Source: Escherichia coli (GTDB lineage: Bacteria; Pseudomonadota; Gammaproteobacteria; Enterobacterales; Enterobacteriaceae). From it: a stretch of 64,000 nt of DNA. The notes under the pieces were generated by a model. That model was not told the origin of the DNA and did not search any database. It worked only from the letters and a program-made list of their open reading frames with translations. Position 1 is the stretch's first letter, and each line of letters opens with the position of its first letter. Below, piece after piece: positions 6,391 through 22,702 of this stretch. Both the position numbers and the translations under genes were made by a program. The DNA lies in NCBI RefSeq assembly GCF_046105845.1, contig NZ_CP151004.1; one strand, written 5' to 3'.

Positions 6391-6601
6391 GCGTTCATTA
6401 ATTTGATTTATTTGCATCCATTAGCGCTTTTAACTGCTCCGGCGTAAACGGTGGTTTGCGTCGGTGCAGCATCGCATGGCAATTAGGGCACACAGGAAGT
6501 AAAAAAACAAATGAGATCAAGGTAATATATCTTCACTTGCAGGCTTGAACAGCAGAAAATTTGCGAGCATGATCGCAATTATTTCACTGCCAGGGATATC
6601 A

Positions 6602-7474
6602 ATGGCTTCCAGTAAATCGCTACAGCAGGCAATTGCCAACATAAAAATCTGGCACAAGGGTGAACAGCGCGCGCCGCATAAGCCATTGTTATTGCTATAC
6701 GTATTAGCGGGATACCTGCATGGACATCCGCGCCTTTTCGATTATGGCTCGGAAATCTACGAACCTCTGCACAGTTTACTGGAACGTTTTGGGCCACAGC
6801 GTTCACAGTACCGACCTGATATGCCGTTCTGGCGATTACAAGGCGACGGATTCTGGCAATTACACAATGCCGAGCTTTGCTCAACAGCAGGGAGCAGCCG
6901 ACAACCGCCAGTGAAGGAACTGAACGAATACCACGTTGCAGGCGGTTTCGATGAACAGCACTACGCCCTGGTAACCGGCAATAAAAAACTCATCAATACT
7001 CTGGCGCAACAGATACTCGAAGCGCACTTCACCGAGAGTATTCAGGAAGAAATTGCTGACGAGCTGGGTTTTGATCTCCAGCAAATCCGTAAACAGCGCG
7101 ACCCGTTATTTCGCAAAAATGTATTACGCGCTTATAACTACCAGTGCGCGATATGTGGCTTTAATATGCGCCACGACGACACCACCGTCGCGCTTGAAGC
7201 GGCGCATATAAAATGGAAACAGCACGGCGGTCCTTGTGAAATTCCTAATGGCCTGGCGCTTTGCGCAATTCACCATAAAGCCTTTGATAAAGGATCGATT
7301 GGCCTGGATGAAAATATGCGGGTACTGGTCTCGGATGCGGTAAACGGCGGAGGGATCGTTGAGAAACTATTCTGGGATTTTGACGGGAAAACTATTGCGT
7401 TACCACAGGTGCGTAAAAATTACCCTTTTGAGGGGTTTGTAGAGTGGCATCGGAAAGAGGTTTTTAGGGGGTGA
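6602..7474 (+). CDS. HNH-endonuclease-domain protein with an uncharacterised N-terminal domain (about 290 aa)
   Basis: C-terminal CxxC...HIKW...NGLALCAIHH HNH-like motif; start chosen at ATG 6602 with an AGGGA RBS (the ORF track begins at TTG 6545). Confidence 0.65.
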   Translation: MASSKSLQQAIANIKIWHKGEQRAPHKPLLLLYVLAGYLHGHPRLFDYGSEIYEPLHSLLERFGPQRSQYRPDMPFWRLQGDGFWQLHNAELCSTAGSSRQPPVKELNEYHVAGGFDEQHYALVTGNKKLINTLAQQILEAHFTESIQEEIADELGFDLQQIRKQRDPLFRKNVLRAYNYQCAICGFNMRHDDTTVALEAAHIKWKQHGGPCEIPNGLALCAIHHKAFDKGSIGLDENMRVLVSDAVNGGGIVEKLFWDFDGKTIALPQVRKNYPFEGFVEWHRKEVFRG

Positions 7475-7784: not shown

Positions 7785-10700
7785 TTATAGCTGACGTTGA
7801 TCCAGACTGCTATATATCGCCTTTATTTCATTTTTTACGCCTTCGCCACGGTACACCAAAGACGTATCGTATCGTTGATATTTATCTTCTCGCGCAGCGC
7901 TGAACCAGTTAAAAGATCCAACGCACAACAACTCTTCATCCCTAATCACAATTTTGCTGTGAACGCGATTCACCAATTTTGTAGCAATGCCCATATTATT
8001 GAGCTTTTCGACTGCATCATTTAGAAGATGCAGTTTCTCCTGGCGCTTATCATCATCGATATGCGCAATATTGCAGTTTTTATCCGTTACCACGGTAATA
8101 TCAATACCTCGGGAGCGGGCCAGAGCCATTGACGTCAGAAACCCCGTTTGCTCCACTTTTTGCCAGGATAACCAGGGGGAAATAATCGTGATCTTCTGTT
8201 GAGCTGCGGCCAGAGCATTATTCAAGAATTCATCATGCTGCTCCACACCATGCAACGTTGAAATATGTGTCTGTGCGGAAATTAAATCCTGTCGTTTCTG
8301 AAACTCAAATTGCAACGCATTATTATCTGAAGCAAACAGAAATTTTGCCAATAACCCTCGTGGCGAAGATGCGGGCTGCATCTCAATAAGGTCCATATCG
8401 CCAAAGACCAGAAAACTATCCTTAGCGCGTGAGACAGCAACATTGAGGATACTGCTGTTGCTATCAAGAAACCTGCCATCTTCATGTTTTGAGTAGACTG
8501 GGGAAAAGAGAACAATCGCCCTTTCCGCACCCTGCAAGGAGTGCACAGTCCCCACTGTCAGTGAGCCCTCTTCGTCTTTGTCATTAATCTCCAGCTTACG
8601 CAATGACGTTTTGATGGCATTAACCTGCGCCGAAAATGGCGTCACAACACCAACAACTTTGTACAGAGGTTCCCCGTAATGGCGCTCTATATCATCCTTA
8701 TGTGTCGCCAGCCATGCTGCTATTGTTTCAGCTTCAAGAGGGTTATAACGGCTCCCCCCATTTGGCTTCATGCCTCGGCCATCAATATGCAGATATCCCA
8801 TTGCGGGAAAAATCGTCCCTTTTTCCATCCCTCTTTTAGGCTGCAACTTACCGTTATAGCAAAGTGAGTTACAGTAGCCGATGATGTTATTGAAACAGCG
8901 ACGATGCTCATACAGATACATTCCGCGCTCGAACTTGGGATCATACTGGTAGCGGGAGTTGAACTGGGCAACCTGCATTACGCTGCCAGATGCTGCACTT
9001 TTTCCAGACCTACACACATGGGAATATGTATTTATTAACTCTTCCTGAGTGCCACCAGAAAGAATATTCTCCTCAAGCATATTGCCCATATCAGTAACGG
9101 GTAGACAATTCCAGATTGGAGCTATTTGCTCCGTATCGCCAATCACCAGTGCTTTCTTCGCCAATGCAAAAGAGGCCGCAGCAACCTCCGGGAGTACCTG
9201 CCCTGCTTCATCGACAATCAGTAAATCGGCAAAGTTATATAAATAATTATTATCCGATGTTCTGTCCCCACCAAAAGATTTTCTCCTGTTCATATGGTAA
9301 GGCAACATGTAGCAGGTCATTACCACACAAGGAGTAAGTTTCATTCTTCTTAGCCAACGAGCCTCGGCGATAGTTGTCCCGGTAATTCCTTTTTCTTTTT
9401 GCAGGTTATCAATTGCCGCCATATCCATCAGCCAGCGACCTTCCCAATAATGAGTCGCTAACAAGAACGCTGGAAAACGAATCTGAGTATCGGCAAGCTC
9501 GTCCGCTCCGGCGAGGTTCAGCTCATCGTCTCCCCTGTAGCCCAGAGCATAAGTCAACCCGCGCCATTGTTTTGCTGCTTCCATTTCGCTTCGGGCTATG
9601 TCCTGCGCAAAGTTGATATTCTGTTGGCACGCCGCCTGCTCTTGTTGCGCTTTAGCGATCAAACTATCGATAAATTTATCAATATCTTCGGAACAATTTC
9701 CCTGGAACGCTGTCATTCTTGCGCCGAACGTAGAGTCCAGGAAGAGGTTAATCTGGTAATGGCGTTTAGCACGAACAGCAGGGAGCCATGACAAAAATGC
9801 ATACATAAGCGACTCATCGGCACGGTATTGCTGCCACTGCTTTTTACCTCTGGCTAAAAGTGAAATTTCGTTGCCAATATTGAGAAGAAGTGTGTTTTTG
9901 TCCTGAAGATACTGGTCGAGATTCTCACTGATGACTCGCTGTTCATGGCGGATATCATTGAGTCTGCGCCATGCAGGTTCGATTTGCTGAAGTTGCATAA
10001 CCTGTGAAGTTAAACGTTCATGCAAAAGCGTCACTACATGCTCTGGCGAATTGCACTCTCCAGCTCCAAACGCCGCCTCCGCTTTTTCAAGGTAAAAGGC
10101 CCGGGCTTTTTCCAGATATTCCAGGGATTCAACGCGGTTAAAAAAATCTTCAGTCTGGTATTTCTTCGCTGCCTCAACCTGACGGCTTTTAGACGGAAAA
10201 TAAGCGCCATAGCTTATTACTTCCGGCAACCAACGCCCAGACATTACGCCAAAACCAGTAGAGAAATCTTTTCCAAAGGCTTCAATAATATTGGTGACGG
10301 CCTGATTGTTAGTCGATGTGGCAATAATTACAGGAGGTTCAGTTTGATTAAGTGCGGCTCTTGTCCATTCGGTGGCAATAATAGAAAGCACCAGCGTAGT
10401 TTTACCCGTTCCCGGAGGACCGTTGACAGCGAGCATATCACCCTGCTGTTGAGTCAGATAATGGCTCAGGGCATCGCGCTGCGCCACTGCCAGCGGAAAC
10501 TTATCGCCGGAATGCCCCAGACGTTCGCAGAACATCGCATTCTTAGCGAGAAGTGGCTCCACTGGAGCCATTTCGTTTGAGGCAAAACGCGTTAATAGCG
10601 GAACCTTAACCTGGCTCATCAGAAGATGGTCATACATAGGCAGGATATGAACGCTGGCCCCTACATGCTGGCTAGCTTTAACAATATAACCGTATCCAGC

Positions 10701-11300
10701 CCGTTCGTATGGCTCAGATGTAGCGACCCAATTTCCAGCGACGTTTCTTAAAAGGTTATCTGACTGTTGTAGATAATTTTGCCAATGCTGACGATACCTG
10801 GCATGGCGTTCCGCTTTCTCTTCGTCAGTTTCTTCGTAATGTTCTGGTTCATCTTCATTAATGGTGGCTGTGTTATGCGTGGTTTTGTATTTGTCATATT
10901 GCGCCAACTCACCAATAGAAAAATGACCGGAAGGGAGAGGTTCAAGCAGATCGCGGGGAATAGTGGCTGAAGCGGCAGGAAACAAAAAACCTTCCCTATT
11001 CAGAAGAGCGGAGGTAACCAGTGGCGTGATAATTGCGGGTGCACCTGCCATTTGCTCTTTGCCATGCTTTACTATGCGGTTCCACACTTGGGGCCGTAAC
11101 ACGACTTCAACGGTTTTTACCGACTCCCCTTCACCGTCAAAAAATGCCCGAATAGTCTCGTCATCCAACTGCCCTGCGGTGATATTTATCCATCGAATGA
11201 ATGAATCTGTATCTTTACGTGAAAACGTTCCTTTACCAGATTCGGCGTCAGCTAAGGAGTTGCGCCAGTATGAAGTGAATCCCAATGTATTGCTGTCCAT
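7785..11300 (-). CDS. SF1 (Upf1-like) helicase fused to a C-terminal PLD-family HKD nuclease; Mokosh type II-like architecture
   Basis: Walker A GPPGTGKT (about 10397-10421), Walker B LIVDEAGQ, helicase motif [13 protein letters not shown]-terminal HSKIVIRD...GSFNW (HxKxxxxD...GSxN, near 7960); start taken at MDSNTLGF (11300). Confidence 0.8.
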
Positions 11301-11592
11301 TTTCCATTCCGTGACATAATAGAAATCATTGATTTCATTGATGTAAATATTACTTATGATTAAACATTGTCCACGATGCGAGCACGATCGCAATAAATAT
11401 TGTGCCTGGAGGATGGATTAGATTTTCTGAAAGAGCCGAATCCTTAATAGATAAGCGCAAACATACTTGGTTCGGTATTCTTAAGGGAATTAATATGGAT
11501 TGAACCAGGTGGAAAAAACAGCGGAAAAGATTTGTGTAGCGCGGATTTCAGGCATAAAAAAAGACCTCAGTTGAGGTCTATTTACATACTTT

Positions 11593-11776: not shown

Positions 11777-13352
<1,576 letters not shown>

Positions 13353-13927: not shown

Positions 13928-15718
13928 GTGGAATCGATTACCAAACTTTACCAGACCCCGCTGCCATCTACCCGTACTGGCCCTTTGTATAATGCGTTCT
14001 CATATCCAACAAAGATTTCACCAGAAGCTATAGCGGTTTACATTGCTACGCACACCGAGCCCGGTGCAACAGTGTTAGACGCATTTGCTGGTAGTGGTAC
14101 CACAGGCTTAGCCACTCTGCTCTGTGACCGCCCTACACTCGAAATGAAGCGAATGGCGGAAAGCCTCGGCGCATCGCCAAAGTGGGGACCACGTAATGCA
14201 CAACTTTTTGACATTGGAACATTAGGGTCATTCGTATCTCAGACCATGTGCAATCCTCCTGATCCTGACGAATTTGCAGATGCAGTGAAGGAGCTATGTA
14301 AACAAGCTGAGTTACAATTGGGTTGGTTATACAGTATTAAAGATGCCAATGGCCAAGTAGGCATGCTCCGCCATGCTATTTGGTCTGATGTACTAATCTG
14401 CCCTAACTGTAATACTGAGACCTCACTTTGGGATGCCAGTGTGAAAACTAATCCCATCAAAATGGCTGATTCTTTCATTTGTAAGGGTTGCCAGAAGCTC
14501 GTATCTATTGAAGCTTGTGAAAGAGCCACAGAGACAATCTCTGATGTTTTCGGAAGTACACAGTGCACCAAAAAACGAGTGTTAGCTCGCGTGCATGGAC
14601 GTTGCGGAACAACAAAGTGGCAGAGGCCTCCAACTGATGAAGACTATGAGATTTTGGCTCGCATTGCCGAAATGCAGCCTCCAACATCAGCCCCAAACGT
14701 TGAAATTGAATGGGGAGAACTAAGACGCTCAGGCTATCATTTTGGGATAGATAAGCTCCATCATTTCTATACAAAGCGTAATTTCATTGCGATGGCTTTA
14801 CTAATGGAGCTAGTCAATAACTTTAATGAAAGCGTTCGAGAGGCCTTGCGGCTTCTTGTCCTTAGCTACAATGCGAGCCATTCGACACTCATGACTCGTG
14901 TAGTGCTAAAAAAAGGACAAAATGACTTTGTACTTACGGGCGCTCAAAGTGGCGTGCTCTACATCAGCGGATTTCCAGTTGAAAAAAATCTTATAGAGGG
15001 TATTCGTCGCAAATCTAATTCGTTCATAAACTCGTTCCGGCTTTTATACGGTAGTCAAAGTCAGGTAACTGTTCATAATGTTAGCAGTGAAACTATGCCA
15101 CTCAAGGACAATTCCGTGGATTACGCTTTCACTGACCCTCCTTTCGGCGATTATATCCCATACGCTGAGCTCAATCAGCTCAATGAGCTTTGGCTAGGGC
15201 GTTCCACTGATCGTAAACGTGAAGTCATTGTGAGCCCTTCTCAAGCTAAGGGAGTGAAAGAATACGGCAGTATGATGGGTACAGTATTCAAAGAAATGTC
15301 TAGGGTACTGAAGCATGACGCATTAGCTACCGTAGTATTTCACTCCGCACATTCGGAGATATGGAGAGCTCTAGTTCAAGCTTATACCGAAGCAGGATTC
15401 GCAGTGGAAGCAACAAGCGTACTTGATAAAATTCAGGCAAGTTTTAAACAAGTAGTTTCGAATGTTTCTGTTAAGGGTGACCCTCTATTATTGTTATCTA
15501 AGCGCAGCCAAGAACGTTCAGAGTCTAAGACTTGTGATTTAATCGCCGCTGAGATAATCAATAATGCTAAAAATGATTTGAAACCCGATCCACAGCGTCT
15601 CTATTCACAATTTGTGGGAAGATGTCTCGAGCTGGGCAGCAACGTTACTATGGATGCAAAAACCTTTTATGCACTTGCTCAAACCAACGGTTTATGTGTT
15701 AAAGGAACCAATACGTGA
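13928..15718 (+). CDS. DNA methyltransferase-like protein (N4/N6 beta-class-like core with permuted motif order and a Cys4 zinc-ribbon insert), 596 aa
   Basis: SAM motif I VLDAFAGSGTTG at residues 48-60, preceded by a YPTK context; CPNC...CKGC cysteine cluster; motif IV FTDPPFGDY at residues 401-409 (about 15134); GTG start; stop overlaps the next gene. Confidence 0.8.
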   Translation: MESITKLYQTPLPSTRTGPLYNAFSYPTKISPEAIAVYIATHTEPGATVLDAFAGSGTTGLATLLCDRPTLEMKRMAESLGASPKWGPRNAQLFDIGTLGSFVSQTMCNPPDPDEFADAVKELCKQAELQLGWLYSIKDANGQVGMLRHAIWSDVLICPNCNTETSLWDASVKTNPIKMADSFICKGCQKLVSIEACERATETISDVFGSTQCTKKRVLARVHGRCGTTKWQRPPTDEDYEILARIAEMQPPTSAPNVEIEWGELRRSGYHFGIDKLHHFYTKRNFIAMALLMELVNNFNESVREALRLLVLSYNASHSTLMTRVVLKKGQNDFVLTGAQSGVLYISGFPVEKNLIEGIRRKSNSFINSFRLLYGSQSQVTVHNVSSETMPLKDNSVDYAFTDPPFGDYIPYAELNQLNELWLGRSTDRKREVIVSPSQAKGVKEYGSMMGTVFKEMSRVLKHDALATVVFHSAHSEIWRALVQAYTEAGFAVEATSVLDKIQASFKQVVSNVSVKGDPLLLLSKRSQERSESKTCDLIAAEIINNAKNDLKPDPQRLYSQFVGRCLELGSNVTMDAKTFYALAQTNGLCVKGTNT

Positions 15719-17763
15719 TGAGTAAGCATGATGATAATCATATCGAGATTAGCTGCCCTATAGACTTTGAACGGCGAAAACGGCTGGGGCAGTACTTCAC
15801 GGGTACCGGCCTTGGTCGTTTGCTTGCAGCCCTTGCTCAAGCCGAAAAGGCTGACAGCATCATAGATCCTATGGTGGGATCTGGAGACCTACTTGCCTCT
15901 TGTATAGAGATTGATGCTAAACCTGCTGTAATGGCAGGTATCGAGATAGATATGAAAGTACATAAGGCTTGTTCAAAGCGATTGCCACATGCACATTGTT
16001 TACTTGGTAATGCTTTCGATCCCAGGGTTATTGCACAGTTGCCCGTAAAATCATGGGATTTAGTAATCGCAAATCCCCCTTATGTTCGCTATCAATCCCT
16101 TCGGGATAAAGATCACAATTCAAGCGCATTTCCTTCCGCAATGCAAATTCGAAAAATGTTGCTTCGATCGTTAGAGTTGATAGATACACTCGATAAAGAA
16201 GATAAGCGACTTTTTGCCGAACTCATCCACGGTTATTCTGGTCTATCCGATTTGGCAGTGCCTGCATGGATTCTCTGCGCTGCTTTGGTTGAGAAAGGAG
16301 GACGTTTAGCTCTAATTGTACCTGAGTCGTGGCTTAGCCGAGACTATGCAACAATAGTGAATTACCTTCTGTTTAGATGGTTCGACATAGAATTTGTTGT
16401 AGAGGACGAACATGCGTCATGGTTTGAAGAAGCTCAGATCAAGACAACATTGATCATCGCCAAGAGAATTCAACGTCGCTCTTCCAAACTCTCAATTCCT
16501 GCTGAATATCACTATTGTCACATAGCACTTGCAGCCGCAGCAGCTAACAACAGAAGTCCTATAGGTGGTATTAACTTACCGGTAAAAGAGGCTGAAAAGC
16601 TCTTCGCAAAACAGGCTCAAATCTGGCTCCGAGATGCGTCTAAACATGAAACGGGCCTTGTTAGCACTCGTCCAATTTCTCTAAATCACTCTTGCAAAAA
16701 TATGATCGCGTCAGCTTCCCGCCAAAAGTGGTTTGCCACTATGAGTAAAGCTGATGATGTTTTCAGCAACGAAGACTATATACCTCATGAGATCCACGAA
16801 TGGATTAAAAGGAATACACTTACCCCTTCGTTCGATAGTTTTGAATCTATAGGCATCGCTGTTGGCCAAGGACTTAGGACAGGTGCTAATAATTTTTTTT
16901 ACGCTAGCGGAGAATTAAAAGACGGACACGTCGAGCTATCTTTTTTAGGCCCGTTATCAGGATTGAAAGCTAGAAGCTCAATCAACATCGTTAAGCCCAC
17001 ATTACGCCGCCAATCAGAGCTGCCTAATGGTTTTGTAATTTCTCCTTCTGATGCCAAAAGTTGGACGTTAGACTTAAGAAACTATGTACTGCCCGAAGAT
17101 ATTGGCGATAATGATATATCTTGCACATCATATGAGCTTATGCCAAATGAACTTGTTAAGGTCGTTAGAGCTGCACAAGAAGCAAACTTTGGCACAAGCG
17201 AGAGGCCGCTAAAAATTTGGGAGCTGACGGCGGTCGCACCTAATATCCGACCTGCAACACCTCAGACTCCCGCTCGTCATTGGTATATGTTGCCAAATTT
17301 TACACCTCGCCATCAACCAGATGTATTCTTAGCACGTGTAAATACGCTAACCCCTAAGGCTTATCTAAATCAAGATAGAGCATGCCTTATCGATGCTAAT
17401 TTTTCGACAATGTGGTTATTAGATGATTCAAAATGGTCAGCAACTACAATCCTCGCTTTTATGAATTCTACATGGGTTCAAGCTGTAATCGAGTGTCTGG
17501 GGTCGGTTATGGGCGGCGGGGCGTTGAAAGTTGAGGCCACTCACCTACGCAAAATTCCTGTTCCAAAGTTTAATGATGAGCAAAGAAAAATTCTTTCCGA
17601 TCTTGGAAAAAAACTTGTAAAAGGCACACAGGAAAAACTAGTTATTTTAGAGATAGATAGGATAATAGCTGAAGCTTTGGGCTGTAATGACATGAATATT
17701 GATGAACTTAAACAGATTACGCATTTAGGTCAAACTCGGCGGGCTAAACACAAAGGAAGGTAG
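15715..17763 (+). CDS. N6-adenine DNA methyltransferase, gamma-class (Eco57I/TaqI-like) with a C-terminal TaqI_C-like domain, about 682 aa
   Basis: GQYFTG (motif X), DPMVGSGDLL (motif I), NPPYV (motif IV, about 16072), GLRTGANNFFY (TaqI_C-like GxxTGxNxxF); start overlaps the upstream stop (GTGATGA). Confidence 0.8.
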   Translation: MMSKHDDNHIEISCPIDFERRKRLGQYFTGTGLGRLLAALAQAEKADSIIDPMVGSGDLLASCIEIDAKPAVMAGIEIDMKVHKACSKRLPHAHCLLGNAFDPRVIAQLPVKSWDLVIANPPYVRYQSLRDKDHNSSAFPSAMQIRKMLLRSLELIDTLDKEDKRLFAELIHGYSGLSDLAVPAWILCAALVEKGGRLALIVPESWLSRDYATIVNYLLFRWFDIEFVVEDEHASWFEEAQIKTTLIIAKRIQRRSSKLSIPAEYHYCHIALAAAAANNRSPIGGINLPVKEAEKLFAKQAQIWLRDASKHETGLVSTRPISLNHSCKNMIASASRQKWFATMSKADDVFSNEDYIPHEIHEWIKRNTLTPSFDSFESIGIAVGQGLRTGANNFFYASGELKDGHVELSFLGPLSGLKARSSINIVKPTLRRQSELPNGFVISPSDAKSWTLDLRNYVLPEDIGDNDISCTSYELMPNELVKVVRAAQEANFGTSERPLKIWELTAVAPNIRPATPQTPARHWYMLPNFTPRHQPDVFLARVNTLTPKAYLNQDRACLIDANFSTMWLLDDSKWSATTILAFMNSTWVQAVIECLGSVMGGGALKVEATHLRKIPVPKFNDEQRKILSDLGKKLVKGTQEKLVILEIDRIIAEALGCNDMNIDELKQITHLGQTRRAKHKGR

Positions 17764-17772
17764 CAGAATTTT

Positions 17773-20700
17773 ATGGGAACAATTTACAATGAAACTCAAG
17801 GCTTAGCATTTCTGAAAGAAGCTGTAGCACTTATGGCTGATGGAAAAGCTGAGGATGTTCTGCGACATGCGCTATCTGCCAAACTGCCGCTCATGTTCCC
17901 TAAACAGCCATGGTGGATAAAAGCACATGTTACAGGTACAGAGTCGCTTGCTAAATTTCATGAATTTGGTTCGAAAAAGTATGGATTCGTGGATGTATTA
18001 GTAGGTTCAACTGTTATTGAATATGAAAGAAATTTACAAACACAGGGTTCATTCACACATGGGCTCCATCAGTTAAAACAATATTGTGCTTCTCTTCTTA
18101 ACAGCCACACGCCTTCAGATCTTTTAGTTGGGGTACTATCAGACACGATTCGCTGGTATGCCTTTCGTGTTTCAGACGTAAAAGATATTTCGGCTGTTCC
18201 CGGTGCGACAAGCTACGGCCCTGAACATATTGATTTAGCTGAAATTGAATCCTATGACCTGTCGGCAGCTGGGAGCATTGAGGCCAAAAAGCTTGGTAAA
18301 TTCTTGGTTCGATATCTGGGCCGAGAAGGTGGACGAACTTTAGCAGCATCCATGCTAGCAAAGGATTTAGGCTTTGAAAGCTCATTTTGCGAAACACATC
18401 TCCAGCAAATAGAAAAACTAGTTGATGTAGCTTTTGTAAGCGATCCATCCTACGCTGGGTTAATCACCAAACTCTGGATGGATTTTGTTTCTTACTTGGG
18501 TGGTGAATCTGCTACAGGTAAATTTGATAAAACTTCATATATTGGAGAATTGTACATATTAACGTTAGCCAAGCTTATTTGCGCTAACGTACTTAGCGGT
18601 AAAGGACTTGTTAGCGACGATACGGAACTATTATCAATTCTAGATGGTACATTTTTCAAAGCGAAAGGACTTCCGAATCTTGTAGAATACGACTACTTCG
18701 GTTGGCTTAATAATAGCCCTTATGTTTCCCCCCTTGCCAAAGTAGCACGCGACATTCAGAACGATCTATTAGCTTATGACTTTGAGTCTGCTCCAGCTGA
18801 AGACCTATTTGGTTCTCTAATGGCTCAGCTTGCAACACGCGCTCAACGTCTTCTCCTCGGTCAAGAATGGACACCAGCATGGCTAGCTGCGAAAGTAGTA
18901 AATGAAGCCATCAACAAACTGCCATTAAACCAGCAACCAAGATTCATCGATATGTGTTGCGGTTCAGGCACTATAGTTGTGGAGACAGTAAAAGCGGTCC
19001 AACAACGGTTACTTGCAGCAGGCTCTAAGCCAGGAGAACCTGCTGCGTTAAGCTCATTAGCCACTGCAATTACGGCTTTCGATATAGATCCGCTCGCCGT
19101 AATGTTAGCAAAAGTGGGCTGGGTACTGGCTTGCAAGGACTGGCTTATACCTGGCCATGAAGCCTTAATTCCTGTGTATCACGCAGACTCACTATTTGCC
19201 AATACTCCGGTCACCAAGGTGTTTAGTACAACAGGCGAAGAGCAACGCAAGCTAAAGCTTGACACAGAAGAGGTTGACCTACCACAATTTTTGGTCGAAT
19301 CGAAACATCAATCTCTATTTGATGCACTTTTATCACGTGGTTATGATATGGCCATGAGTAGTGCTGCAGAAGCCAAATCAACGTTAAATAATGATGATAT
19401 TGAGATAATGGTTGATTCGGTAGCTTTGCATTTAGACTGTGTGCTGTCAGCTGAAGAACGCACATCTACATTATTCTTTTGCTGCCAACTGTTACGCGCA
19501 CTTGAAGCATTGCAACGTGCTGGTCGAAACGGCATTTGGTCATTCGTTCTGAAAAATAGCTTTCGCCCAGCCTTAGTGGCGGGCCGTTTTAATGGAATTG
19601 TTACTAACCCACCATGGCTATCGCTAAGCCGCATTGGTAGCAACCCTTATCGTAATGCGTTAAAAGCAAAAGCGGATAAATATGGAATTAAGCCATCTGG
19701 CGCTTCACACCTGCATGTTGAAATCGCGACGACCTTCTTGCTACATGCTATCGATCATTATCTTACATCAGATGGGGTTGTTGCATGTATCTTACCCGAA
19801 ACAGTTCTGAACGGTTCTCATCATGAACCATTCCGGTCATCCAAGTATCTATCAGCTAATAGTCCAGCAGCATTCAATCCACAAGAAATTTGGAAAGTGG
19901 CCAGCCAAACATTTAAAAATGAGGCCATTGTTCTATTCGGTTATAAATCTAAGCCAACATTTCCAGTAGTAAGCCTCTTGGGCCGAAAAGTTAGCAGTTC
20001 ATTTGAAGAATTCTGCGAGTTTCACATCGTTAATTCTGGAGGGAAGTCTGCTTGGGCATTAGACCGCCCTGTAACAGAAGTGTTGAAAGTGGAAACTAAA
20101 GATTCAATTGGACCTCTGTTTAGACAAGGAGCCGATATAATGCCCCGCGGAATTATTTTTCATGATATCAAAAAAAACGGAATATCATGGGATCTTGGTC
20201 CCATTCATCCCGGCTCATCACTATATTTTTTGCGTTCTGAGGGTAAAATTCTTAAGGACTTTTCTTTAAGCGCCTGTGGGGTGAACGATGGAGTGATATA
20301 TGATGTGCTTCTTTCAAAACATTTAGCCCCTTGGGAATTATCTGTAGGTTCAAAGGCCTTATTACCATTCCAGCGTAGTGACGATAAGTGGCTCGCTCGT
20401 ACTGGATCAAATATTGCAGCCCTAGGAGCTTCTACTGCCTCAGCAATCAAAGCTATGTTGACGGCAACCGGTGAAAACATAGAAGATTTCTTTTTACGAA
20501 TCGATACTGATCGCAAGAAATTAACCACCCAGAGTTGGAGCTCAGAAGACTGGGTTGTATTCGGGTCTGCTGGAGGTAAATGGCCATGCGCCGCTTACAC
20601 ACGCGGAGAGCAGATTCCCTGCTCTAAAACGATAATAGACCAAACGCTCTATTGGGGCGTAGTCAAAAGTGAGGATGAAGCGATATACATTACTGCACTA

Positions 20701-21018
20701 ATTAATAGTCCTGCGGTAATGAATGTGATTGTATCCCATCAACCTAGAGGATCCTTTGGGGAACGACACATACACAAGTTGGCTTTCGACCGGACACCTT
20801 CTTATGACCAAACCTCAGCTAAACATCTCGACGTTGTTCGCTCGGCGAAGGATTTGATGAATCAGTGGGCTAATCGTCGCATGGAAGCTGACATATCTCC
20901 CATGCTATCTCCTAGTGTTCACTTAATTACTCGCAGAAAAAAGATTCGTAATGCATTAGAGTCATTGCCTGCATGGGAGCCGTACGTGGCAGCCACTCAA
21001 GCTATATATGAAATTTAA
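17773..21018 (+). CDS. Large multidomain protein (1081 aa): HsdR/MmeI-like N-terminal domain, central gamma-class SAM-methyltransferase core, large C-terminal domain; Type IIG/IIL-like
   Basis: N-terminal D74...E83-x-E85...Q100xxxY104 pattern; GQEWTPAW (motif X-like); FIDMCCGSGT (motif I, about 18943); DIDPLAVMLAKV; NPPW (motif IV, about 19606); RBS AAGGAAGG upstream of ATG 17773. Confidence 0.8.
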   Translation: MGTIYNETQGLAFLKEAVALMADGKAEDVLRHALSAKLPLMFPKQPWWIKAHVTGTESLAKFHEFGSKKYGFVDVLVGSTVIEYERNLQTQGSFTHGLHQLKQYCASLLNSHTPSDLLVGVLSDTIRWYAFRVSDVKDISAVPGATSYGPEHIDLAEIESYDLSAAGSIEAKKLGKFLVRYLGREGGRTLAASMLAKDLGFESSFCETHLQQIEKLVDVAFVSDPSYAGLITKLWMDFVSYLGGESATGKFDKTSYIGELYILTLAKLICANVLSGKGLVSDDTELLSILDGTFFKAKGLPNLVEYDYFGWLNNSPYVSPLAKVARDIQNDLLAYDFESAPAEDLFGSLMAQLATRAQRLLLGQEWTPAWLAAKVVNEAINKLPLNQQPRFIDMCCGSGTIVVETVKAVQQRLLAAGSKPGEPAALSSLATAITAFDIDPLAVMLAKVGWVLACKDWLIPGHEALIPVYHADSLFANTPVTKVFSTTGEEQRKLKLDTEEVDLPQFLVESKHQSLFDALLSRGYDMAMSSAAEAKSTLNNDDIEIMVDSVALHLDCVLSAEERTSTLFFCCQLLRALEALQRAGRNGIWSFVLKNSFRPALVAGRFNGIVTNPPWLSLSRIGSNPYRNALKAKADKYGIKPSGASHLHVEIATTFLLHAIDHYLTSDGVVACILPETVLNGSHHEPFRSSKYLSANSPAAFNPQEIWKVASQTFKNEAIVLFGYKSKPTFPVVSLLGRKVSSSFEEFCEFHIVNSGGKSAWALDRPVTEVLKVETKDSIGPLFRQGADIMPRGIIFHDIKKNGISWDLGPIHPGSSLYFLRSEGKILKDFSLSACGVNDGVIYDVLLSKHLAPWELSVGSKALLPFQRSDDKWLARTGSNIAALGASTASAIKAMLTATGENIEDFFLRIDTDRKKLTTQSWSSEDWVVFGSAGGKWPCAAYTRGEQIPCSKTIIDQTLYWGVVKSEDEAIYITALINSPAVMNVIVSHQPRGSFGERHIHKLAFDRTPSYDQTSAKHLDVVRSAKDLMNQWANRRMEADISPMLSPSVHLITRRKKIRNALESLPAWEPYVAATQAIYEI

Positions 21019-21266: not shown

Positions 21267-22512
21267 CTACCCAAACTCAAACGGACTTACTCCTTTCTCC
21301 CGATTCGCATCAAGGTAATCAGCCCACCACTGCAGCATCAACCTCCTCTCCCCCAGATGCTCCGCCTTATGGATGTAGGCAGCCCTAGCAGAGCTACGCT
21401 CCTGATGGCTCATCTGCCGCGACACCGCATTCCTCGACCACAATCCCGATTCAATCAATGAGCTACACGCCATCGTTCTGAAACCATGTCCACATACTTC
21501 CGTTTTCGTGTCATAGCCCATCACTCGCAGAGCCTTGTTAACCGTATTCTCACTCATCGGCTTACGCGGATCGTGATTACCAACGGAGATCAGCTCTCGG
21601 TTTCCATTCATGCTTTTGATCTTTTCCAAAATAGCTAAGGCCTGACGCGACAAGGGAACAAGATGTGGAGTCCTCATCTTCGAACCACGTTGAGAATGCT
21701 TAACACCTTCCAGCGGTTCACGCTCTCCCGGAATCGTCCACATAGCCGTTTTAAAAATCCACTTCTGACCAGCGAGCAAAACGCAACTCGCTTGAACGGA
21801 TGAAAACCAGCAAAGTGAGTTCAACCGCCAGTCGTGTTAACGGCCTGCCAGAATAGTGATCAATGCGGTGAAGTAATTCAGTAATACGGTTAAGTTCCAG
21901 AGCTGCACGGTGCTGTCGTTTTGCCGTAGCAACCGCACCGGCAATCTCTTGTGCTGGGTTATAATCGATTAAGCCGCTCTGAACGGCAAACCGCATAATC
22001 GCAGTAGTTCGCTGTTGCAAACGAGCCGCAACTTCTAGTCGTCCGGAAGATTCCACCGCTTTGACGGGTACAAGAAGATCCCACGTCTTCAATTCAGCAA
22101 TGTTCCGCTTACCGATAGTAGTAAAGAGATTATCTTCGAAACTTTTCAATACACGAGCGCTATGCGATGCAGACCACTTCTGATTGCTGGCGTGCCAGTC
22201 TCTGGCAACCACTTCAAACGTTATCGCCTCTTGATCCTGCTCTATTTTAACTGCTTTCTTGTTCTCACTGGGAGCGACGCCATTAGCTAACAATTTACGG
22301 GCTTCATCCCGGCGTGTCCGGGCATCTGCCAGCGACTCTTGAGGGTATTTCCCCAGCGCCAGTATCTTCTCGTTGCCACCAAAGCGGTAACGTAGACTCC
22401 AGTATTTTGAATCGTTAGGGTGAACCAGCAACACCATGCCTTCGCCATCAGCCAGCTTATAGACTTTTATTTCAGGCTGGGCAGCACGAACCTTCACATA
22501 ACTAAGAGCCAT
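21267..22512 (-). pseudogene. P4-type (tyrosine recombinase) integrase next to leuX, reading frame split by a frameshift
   Basis: Two overlapping ORFs (22512-21751 and 21824-21267) together give an integrase of about 415 aa (N-terminal MALSYVKVRAAQ..., C-terminal catalytic region GHGFRTM...); overlap at 21751-21824. Confidence 0.7.
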
Positions 22513-22702
22513 GATGAGTGTCCTTTCAAAGGTTCTGTGTGGTACAAACATTATCGAACCGGGATATACCCACAGTTGTACCCACATCAGTAAGTTGATG
22601 TAGATTGAATTAGGTTGAGTGAAAAAGTGAGGAAGGCATTGCGGATACTGGATTTCAGACACAAAAAAAGCCGCCCTTGAGCGACTCGATTTGCATACGA
22701 TG

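What the first reader, a model, noticed from the sequence alone, without database searches (positions are those of the whole stretch)
17773..21018. Gene 3: methyltransferase core with NPPW motif and an HsdR/MmeI-like N-terminal pattern in which the canonical lysine is replaced
The N-terminal 110 residues contain D74...E83-Y-E85...Q100-L-K-Q-Y104. This resembles the D...ExK...QxxxY motif set of HsdR and MmeI-type PD-(D/E)xK nuclease domains, but glutamate stands where the lysine is expected, so the domain may be a variant or inactivated nuclease. Motif I and motif IV are about 215 residues apart, implying an inserted domain, and about 460 residues follow motif IV (possible target-recognition domain). 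This is Type IIG/IIL-like architecture, yet such enzymes normally need no companion methylases, and this one has two.
Basis: partly seen in the sequence, partly recalled or inferred. Interest (0 to 1): 0.75.

Follow-up and report, generated by a model that had tools for sequence, protein, structure and literature searches.

The report
BseRI-type restriction enzyme with two methylases
Gene 3 is an uncharacterised E. coli relative of the commercial restriction enzyme BseRI, a single protein that both cuts and methylates DNA, and its glutamate-for-lysine nuclease motif and two helper methylases are already-published hallmarks of that family, so the finding is real but ordinary.

Summary
D74, E83-Y-E85, Q100…Y104, motif I (393-399) and NPPW (612-615) are all present.

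E85 does sit at the canonical lysine position, because 18 family members read ExK in the same local context.

This is not a new or dead variant. Gene 3 is 42% identical over its full length to the 1114-aa protein of Bacillus sp. R, the source of BseRI, which carries the same D-x8-E-Y-E motif. Genes 1 and 2 match the two halves of the fused methylase encoded next to it. BseRI's "BamHI-like ExE" motif was published in 2011, and its R~M~TRD plus M1~M2 organisation in 2014.

Companion methylases are normal for Type IIG enzymes such as BpuSI, BseRI and Eco57I; only the MmeI type lacks them.

Verdict: a new, probably functional member of a known family (Type IIG, BseRI-like), lying in the leuX defence island. 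Its recognition sequence is unknown. Interest is low.

The parts
13928..15718 (+). Gene 1 (596 aa): companion methyltransferase M1. It is a permuted N6_N4 (beta-type, m4C/m6A) MTase with motif I 'FAGSGTT' near the N-terminus, 'DPPF' near residue 402, and a Cys4 zinc-ribbon insert.
   Evidence: Pfam N6_N4_Mtase. PADLOC PglXI-like model, 1.8e-116. 51% identical to residues 19-605 of the 1309-aa fused MTase encoded next to the Bacillus sp. R (BseRI) gene. Conserved next to gene 3 homologues in Variovorax, Lysobacter, Xanthomonas and others.
15718..17763 (+). Gene 2 (681 aa from the ATG at 15718): companion methyltransferase M2. It is a gamma-class N6-adenine MTase ('DPMVGSGD', 'NPPY') with a TaqI-like or Eco57I-like C-terminal TRD. 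Its ATG overlaps the gene 1 stop codon (TGATG).
   Evidence: Pfam N6_Mtase, Eco57I and a weak TaqI_C hit. 38% identical to residues 626-1283 of the fused MTase next to the Bacillus sp. R gene. The overlap is visible in the sequence.
17773..21018 (+). Gene 3 (1081 aa): Type IIG R~M~TRD fusion enzyme of the BseRI family.
   Evidence: 42% identical over residues 17-1081 to P0296, the 1114-aa protein of Bacillus sp. R. Foldseek matches MmeI, DrdV, BpuSI, PglX, M.BseCI and CamA at E 1e-11 to 1e-13. PADLOC REase_MTase_IIG, 2e-48.
17773..18336 (+). Nuclease domain (aa 1-188), PD-(D/E)xK fold. The boundary is approximate.
17851..17853 (+). E27, a conserved glutamate in the helix at residues 27-41 (second helix of the model). 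Assigned as the counterpart of BpuSI E21 and DrdV E25 by its place in the motif order, since no structure-based residue alignment was available.
   Evidence: 100% conserved in both the ExE and ExK clades. BpuSI and DrdV residues are taken from PMC3185434 and bioRxiv 10.1101/2021.01.06.425610.
17992..18027 (+). Catalytic hairpin D74-x8-E83-Y84-E85 (motifs II and III), with E85 at the canonical lysine position.
   Evidence: D74 and E83 are conserved in 232 of 232 sequences. Position 85 is E in 214 and K in 18. Local alignments are shown. BseRI-source orthologue: D75, E84, E86.
18070..18084 (+). Q100-L-K-Q-Y104 (QxxxY) in the helix that follows the catalytic strand.
   Evidence: Q100 is invariant in the ExE clade and Q or E in most of the ExK clade. 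Y104 is Y in 214 of 232, otherwise mostly H. Helix 93-110 is seen in the models.
18337..18807 (+). Helical spacer (aa ~189-345), analogous to the MmeI and BpuSI helical connector.
   Evidence: All-helical in the AF2 model. MmeI domain map from PMC4833311.
18808..19857 (+). Gamma-class MTase domain (aa ~346-695). Motif I is at 18949-18969 (DMCCGSG) and motif IV at 19606-19617 (NPPW). An insert of beta-hairpins and helices lies between them.
   Evidence: Invariant motifs. Pfam Eco57I. PADLOC Type IIG models align over 286-689. AF2 secondary structure.
19858..20667 (+). Target-recognition domain (aa ~696-965). It is the most divergent part relative to BseRI (35% identity).
   Evidence: Per-domain identities. 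The Foldseek matches cover M.BseCI, CamA and MmeI, all gamma-class MTases with a following TRD.
20668..21018 (+). C-terminal helical bundle (aa ~966-1081) plus the stop codon.
   Evidence: AF2 secondary structure. Comparable to the MmeI C-terminal helical bundle (PMC4833311).

Best explanation
Genes 1-3 (13928-21018) form a Type IIG restriction-modification operon of the BseRI family.

Gene 3 is a single-chain R~M~TRD enzyme. Its C-terminal TRD together with its gamma-class MTase domain should recognise a short asymmetric DNA sequence. Its N-terminal PD-(D/E)xK nuclease, held on a helical spacer, should cut a fixed short distance to one side (inferred from BseRI, which cuts GAGGAG at 10/8).

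The nuclease uses an acidic active site: E27, D74, E83 and E85. The canonical lysine is replaced by glutamate, as in BamHI.

Gene 1 (an N4C/N6A beta-type MTase) and gene 2 (a gamma-type N6A MTase with its own TRD) are the host-protecting methylases, one for each strand of the asymmetric site. They correspond to the two halves of the fused M.BseRI.

Shown here: homology, fold, motif conservation and operon conservation.
Inferred: catalytic activity, which strand each MTase modifies, cleavage geometry, and that the E. coli copy is expressed.
For: - Gene 3 is 42% identical over its full length to the Bacillus sp. R (taxid 243902) 1114-aa protein P0296, which has the same motifs: E28, D75, E84, E86, Q101, Y105 and NPPW. 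The same protein is AFDB Q6UQ57, hit by the N-terminal model at 44% identity.
- NCBI names the homologues P0280 and P0346 'BseRI endonuclease'.
- The gene upstream of P0296 is a 1309-aa N6_N4_Mtase~gamma-MTase fusion. Gene 1 matches its N-terminal half at 51% and gene 2 its C-terminal half at 38%.
- The literature gives RM.BseRI as R~gammaM~[GAGGAG] & M1~M2, and M.BseRI as m4C-MTase~gammaM (PMC3874165). [quoted passage not shown]
- Constraint: E27, D74, E83, D124 and W128 are conserved in both clades.
- The three-gene set is conserved across Proteobacteria, Bacteroidota and Firmicutes, in several gene orders.
- Genes 1 and 2 overlap (TGATG), and gene 3 follows gene 2 after 9 nt with a Shine-Dalgarno-like sequence.
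- All three ORFs are full length relative to their homologues.
Against: - No biochemical data exist for the E. coli proteins.
- That P0296 is BseRI itself rests on the organism name, the length and the match to the published architecture. It was not checked against a REBASE record.
- In the E. coli island, the region upstream of gene 1 is an IS3 remnant (12298-13344), and the promoter scan found nothing above background, so expression is unproven.
- The cassette is rare, present in 4 of 5426 complete E. coli genomes.
- AF2 coordinates could not be inspected, so the side-chain geometry of E85 was not measured.
Confidence: 0.85

Rival explanations
1. The glutamate substitution has inactivated the nuclease. 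Gene 3 then acts only as a third methyltransferase or DNA-binding specificity factor, making the cassette a three-methylase epigenetic module without restriction.
For: The canonical lysine is absent. Position 86 (K/R/S/P/A...) is too variable to compensate. Loenen et al. note that where the companion MTases already methylate both strands, the methylation activity intrinsic to the R-M enzyme may serve a role other than protection (PMC3874165).
Against: - E27, D74, E83 and E85 are invariant across sequences only 40-50% identical. Dead nuclease domains normally degenerate.
- The BseRI-source orthologue has the identical motif, and BseRI is an active commercial endonuclease (own knowledge; recognition and cut site in PMC2731913 and PMC3874165).
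- ExE is the active BamHI configuration (PMC4081073, PMC3045609).
- Two protective MTases would be pointless without a nuclease.
Confidence: 0.07
2. It is an MmeI-type (Type IIL) or HsdR-related enzyme. The two methylases would then be unrelated neighbours.
Against: - No MmeI_N, MmeI_hel, MmeI_Mtase, MmeI_TRD or MmeI_C Pfam matches.
- No helicase or translocase domain.
- Sequence searches of the PDB give nothing for MmeI or HsdR.
- The two MTases are syntenic with gene 3 homologues in every well-covered locus examined, and are fused to each other in the BseRI locus.
Confidence: 0.03
3. It is a BREX-like or PglX-like non-canonical defence module. Gene 1 resembles PglXI and gene 3 resembles PglX. 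Such a module would block phage replication without classical cleavage.
For: Gene 1 hits the PADLOC PglXI model at 1.8e-116. Gene 3 matches PglX/BrxX structures, and with the profile it gives a weak sequence hit to 8c45 (E 0.036).
Confidence: 0.03

Closest known systems
BseRI restriction-modification system (Bacillus sp. R; Type IIG/IIS, GAGGAG 10/8)
   Same: - Full-length homology of the R~M~TRD protein (42% identity).
- The same E...D-x8-ExE...QxxxY nuclease motifs and the same NPPW MTase motif.
- The same pair of accompanying methylases, in the same order: an N6_N4/m4C-type MTase followed by a gamma-MTase with a TRD (PMC3874165; PMC3045609).
   Different: M1 and M2 are separate, translationally coupled genes here, not one 1309-aa fusion. 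The TRD is only 35% identical, so the recognition sequence is probably different. The host is E. coli, and the cassette was acquired horizontally into the leuX island.
BpuSI (Type IIG, PDB 3s1s) and its M1/M2 companions
   Different: BpuSI has the canonical PD-x15-ExK site (E21, D60, E76, K78). Its companions are an amino-MTase and a C5-MTase. No sequence similarity is detectable.
MmeI and DrdV (Type IIL)
   Different: MmeI and DrdV have no companion MTases and protect the host by single-strand modification. They have the canonical lysine (MmeI K82, DrdV K81). No MmeI Pfam domains are detected here.
BamHI active site (D94, E111, E113)
   Same: A glutamate replaces the motif-III lysine in an active PD-(D/E)xK restriction enzyme (PMC4081073). 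The BseRI motif has been explicitly called BamHI-like (PMC3045609).
   Different: BamHI is a small homodimeric Type IIP enzyme with no MTase fusion. The resemblance is confined to the catalytic motif.

Membership tests
Type IIG restriction-modification enzymes | Endonuclease and methyltransferase domains in one polypeptide | tested here: met
   The N-terminal PD-(D/E)xK fold and a gamma-MTase domain with motif I and NPPW lie in a single 1081-aa ORF.
Type IIG restriction-modification enzymes | Shared C-terminal target-recognition domain following a gamma-class MTase (motif I before motif IV) | tested here: met
   Motif I is at 393-399 and motif IV at 612-615, with about 466 residues after that. 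The fold matches M.BseCI, CamA, MmeI, BpuSI and DrdV across the MTase and TRD.
Type IIG restriction-modification enzymes | Site-specific cleavage at a fixed distance from the site; AdoMet effect on cleavage | not testable with these tools
   Needs purified protein and cleavage mapping.
BseRI family | Full-length sequence homology to RM.BseRI | tested here: met
   42% identity over residues 17-1081 to P0296 of Bacillus sp. R. Identifying P0296 as BseRI rests on the organism, the 1114-aa length, the neighbouring fused MTase and the published architecture (PMC3874165). It was not checked against REBASE.
BseRI family | BamHI-like motif III (ExE) in the nuclease domain | tested here: met
   E83-Y-E85 here and E84-Y-E86 in P0296. 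Described for BseRI in PMC3045609.
BseRI family | Accompanying m4C-type MTase plus gamma-MTase (fused as M1~M2 in BseRI) | tested here: met
   Gene 1 and gene 2 match the two halves of the 1309-aa fusion at 51% and 38%. Here they are separate genes. The base modified (m4C or m6A) was not tested.
BseRI family | Recognition of GAGGAG with cleavage at 10/8 | not testable with these tools
   The TRD is only 35% identical, so a different specificity is likely.
MmeI family (Type IIL) | MmeI-specific domains (Pfam MmeI_N, MmeI_hel, MmeI_Mtase, MmeI_TRD, MmeI_C) and a D-x9-ExK nuclease motif | tested here: not met
   Pfam scan of the whole protein finds only a weak Eco57I hit. The motif is D-x8-ExE.
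MmeI family (Type IIL) | Stand-alone enzyme with no companion methyltransferase | tested here: not met
   Two MTase genes are syntenic in all well-covered loci.
Type I HsdR / Type ISP | SF2 helicase/translocase domain following the nuclease domain | tested here: not met
   No helicase family appears in Pfam, NCBIfam or PADLOC. The model shows a helical spacer followed by the MTase.
BREX (PglX/PglXI) | Co-occurrence with pglZ, brxC and other BREX genes | tested here: not met
   None is present in the window neighbourhood or in ten homologous loci.

The most novel reading that the evidence does not exclude
Within this one enzyme family, the third catalytic residue has flipped between glutamate and lysine several times. 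Close pairs differ at that position in an otherwise near-identical local motif, for example '...TAIEYEKNL' versus '...TAIEYKKNL'. ExK members sit inside the ExE clade and ExE members inside the ExK clade.

If both states are active, the family is a natural experiment on what the 'K' of PD-(D/E)xK actually does, for example one-metal versus two-metal chemistry. Separately, the E. coli enzyme would very likely have a new recognition specificity.
Probability: 0.4. Interest if true: 0.35.

Novelty: new member of a known kind. Interest (0 to 1): 0.15.

Why it matters
The practical value is modest.

- It gives a correct annotation for three E. coli genes that RefSeq labels only as 'DNA methyltransferase', 'N-6 DNA methylase' and 'DNA methyltransferase family protein'.
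- It predicts an active restriction barrier in a few clinical E. coli lineages, in the leuX defence island.
- It offers a possible new Type IIG/IIS specificity, because the TRD is only 35% identical to BseRI.

The glutamate-for-lysine motif and the companion methylases, which made the finding look unusual, are published features of BseRI-type and BpuSI-type systems.

The one point that may be new is the repeated E/K interchange at the catalytic position within the family. Mutagenesis could test it.

Tried and rejected
- **Sequence searches of the PDB.** Neither the protein nor the family profiles found any nuclease or Type IIG relative. The only hit was PglX at E 0.036 on motif I. Fold comparison was therefore needed.
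- **Pfam, NCBIfam and PADLOC.** None gave a hit on residues 1-285.
- **A lysine 'migrated' to position 86 (ExEK).** Rejected, because position 86 is R, K, S, P, A, N and others.
- **Another conserved basic residue specific to the ExE clade.** None was found. R/K31 and K/R102 are conserved in both clades, so they do not explain the switch.
- **Literature search for 'three methyltransferases' defence systems, and the 2026 BREX survey.** Nothing relevant.
- **MmeI, HsdR and BREX membership.** Considered and rejected (see the membership tests).
- **A conserved upstream regulator.** A small ribbon-helix-helix-like ORF precedes gene 1 in the Variovorax and Xanthomonas loci. It is absent in the E. 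coli and Lysobacter loci and not adjacent in the Bacillus locus, so it is not a core part.
Full report
**Observation**

The ORF at 17773-21018 (+) encodes 1081 residues.
- D74, E83-Y84-E85 and Q100-L-K-Q-Y104;
- motif I 'DMCCGSG' at 393-399;
- NPPW at 612-615, which is 215 residues after motif I and is followed by 466 residues.

The protein belongs to a large family of about 1050-1120 residues, with 1248 hits. In 30 members down to 47% identity, all six named residues are invariant.

**Fold**

Sequence methods see nothing in the first 285 residues (Pfam, NCBIfam and PADLOC; PDB sequence searches).

An AlphaFold2 model of residues 1-200 is confident, with pLDDT 91.5 and pTM 0.87. It has the alpha-beta-beta-beta-alpha-beta core of a PD-(D/E)xK nuclease. 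D74 and E83 lie on adjacent hairpin strands. Q100 and Y104 lie in the following helix.

- among the lower matches, other PD-(D/E)xK nucleases: McrC, NucC, HsdR, Cas4, Dna2, NucS and several Type II REases.

The full-length model (pLDDT 81) matches M.BseCI, MmeI, CamA, BrxX/PglX, DrdV and BpuSI at E 1e-11 to 1e-13. Its layout parallels the published MmeI map (PMC4833311):
- nuclease, about residues 1-188;
- helical spacer, about 189-345;
- gamma-MTase, about 346-695;
- TRD, about 696-965;
- C-terminal helices.

That condition is not met.

**Is E85 really at the lysine position?**

Yes. A profile of the N-terminal domain searched against 1.84 billion representative proteins finds 236 proteins. 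The full-length hits are almost all about 1050-1120 residues, and most of the rest appear to be fragments.

Across 232 aligned N-termini:
- D74 and E83 are 100% conserved;
- position 85 is E in 214 sequences and K in 18;
- position 86 is variable.

The local context is otherwise the same, for example 'TAIEYEKNL' versus 'TAIEYKKNL' and 'TAIEYEADL' versus 'TAIEYKSDL'.

A rough neighbour-joining tree puts most ExK members in a basal clade. It also places two ExK members inside the ExE clade and two ExE members beside the ExK clade. The residue has therefore switched more than once.

E27, R/K31, E57, D124 and W128 are conserved in both groups. By its place in the motif order, E27 corresponds to the helix glutamate of BpuSI (E21) and DrdV (E25). 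The published active sites are:
- BpuSI: E21, D60, E76, K78 (PMC3185434);
- DrdV: E25, D64, E79, K81 (bioRxiv 10.1101/2021.01.06.425610).

**Identity of the family**

A Foldseek search of the AlphaFold database with the N-terminal model returned Q6UQ57 from 'Bacillus sp. R', 1114 aa, at 44% identity. A profile search recovered the same protein as P0296, from Bacillus sp. R (taxid 243902). It also recovered two homologues that NCBI names 'BseRI endonuclease'. From my own knowledge, Bacillus species R is the source of BseRI.

Evidence that the E. coli cassette is a BseRI-type system:
- Gene 3 is 42% identical to P0296 over residues 17-1081.
- P0296 carries E28, D75, E84-Y-E86, Q101, Y105 and NPPW.
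- The gene upstream of P0296 encodes a 1309-aa fusion of an N6_N4 MTase and a gamma-MTase.
- Gene 1 is 51% identical to the N-terminal half of that fusion, and gene 2 is 38% identical to its C-terminal half.

This matches the published descriptions. RM.BseRI is given as R~gammaM~[GAGGAG] & M1~M2, cutting at 10/8, and M.BseRI as m4C-MTase~gammaM (PMC3874165, Tables 3 and 4).

The nuclease fold of the BseRI family was listed as 'unknown superfamily' in 2008 (PMC2441816). [quoted passage not shown] Replacement of the lysine by E (BamHI), Q (BglII, NotI) or N (MspI) in active enzymes is textbook knowledge (PMC4081073).

**The two companion methylases**

They are not.

[quoted passage not shown] It also reports that RM.BpuSI could not be cloned without M1 and M2 (PMC3185434). 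Only the MmeI type lacks companions.

The three-gene set recurs in many loci:
- Variovorax, Lysobacter and Xanthomonas;
- a Hymenobacter plasmid, where gene 1 is split;
- an NCBI draft-genome contig (GCA_000770675.1) and metagenome contigs carrying ExK members;
- the Bacillus locus, where the two MTases are fused.

Gene order varies among these loci.

In the window, gene 2's ATG overlaps gene 1's stop codon (TGATG). Gene 3 starts 9 nt after gene 2's stop, behind a Shine-Dalgarno-like 'AAGGAAGG'.

**Context in E. coli**

The cassette lies in the leuX-tRNA island, between IS remnants and a broken P4-type integrase. Its GC content is 42-45%, compared with about 52% for the flanking core genes. 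It occurs in only 4 of 5426 complete E. coli genomes, at 99-100% identity.

All three ORFs are full length relative to their homologues. The native upstream region has been replaced by an IS3 fragment, and no promoter-like site stands out above background. Expression is therefore unproven.

**Conclusion**

The structural reading is right: this is a PD-(D/E)xK nuclease with E at the K position, in a Type IIG architecture.

It is not a new or inactivated variant, and it is not MmeI-like or HsdR-like in the family sense. It is an uncharacterised member of the BseRI family with unfused M1 and M2. Its TRD is only 35% identical to that of BseRI, so its specificity is probably different.

The mechanism is inferred from BseRI and BpuSI, not shown here. 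The only aspect that may be unreported is the repeated E/K interchange at the catalytic position within the family.

Noticed in passing
window 7785-11393 (-): A 1202-aa SF1 helicase with a C-terminal PLD-type nuclease domain. It matches the PADLOC MkoC model (Mokosh type II) end to end at 1471 bits. RefSeq calls the homologue 'helicase YjhR'.
   Followed up: partly
window 6545-7474 (+): A 309-aa ORF that matches NCBIfam 'phosphorothioated DNA-binding restriction endonuclease' (1.4e-131), a Type IV-like enzyme. With MkoC and the BseRI-like operon, it makes the leuX island a defence island.
   Followed up: partly
window 12298-13344 (+) and 21267-22662 (-): An IS3-family transposase remnant lies directly upstream of gene 1. 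A frameshifted P4-type integrase (two ORFs) lies directly downstream of gene 3, next to ahr/idn core genes. In strain AF16 the same integrase is additionally interrupted by IS100, so the window comes from a different strain.
   Followed up: partly
L003 5742-6083; L005 5850-6077: A small ORF directly upstream of gene 1 homologues in Variovorax and Xanthomonas shares the sequence '...LNLRV.P.FK.ALKAAADHEQRSMVNMLEVLV...'. It looks like a ribbon-helix-helix regulator and may be a controller protein. It is absent from the E. coli and Lysobacter loci, and no such ORF lies next to the MTase gene in the Bacillus locus.
   Followed up: partly
proteins P0162, P0170, P0220 (family members, not in the window): Some relatives have a degenerate MTase motif IV: NTPW in P0162 and P0170, NLPW in P0220. 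This hints that the MTase of the R~M fusion may be catalytically dispensable where companion MTases exist. P0162 (1221 aa) also carries a C-terminal extension that looks like an S24/LexA-type peptidase ('GDSMEP...').
   Followed up: no
L010 3474-5332: One basal ExE family member (P0222) is followed by AAA_21 ATPase and RloB genes instead of the two MTases. The contig starts only 98 bp upstream of the gene, so the MTases may lie off-contig.
   Followed up: no
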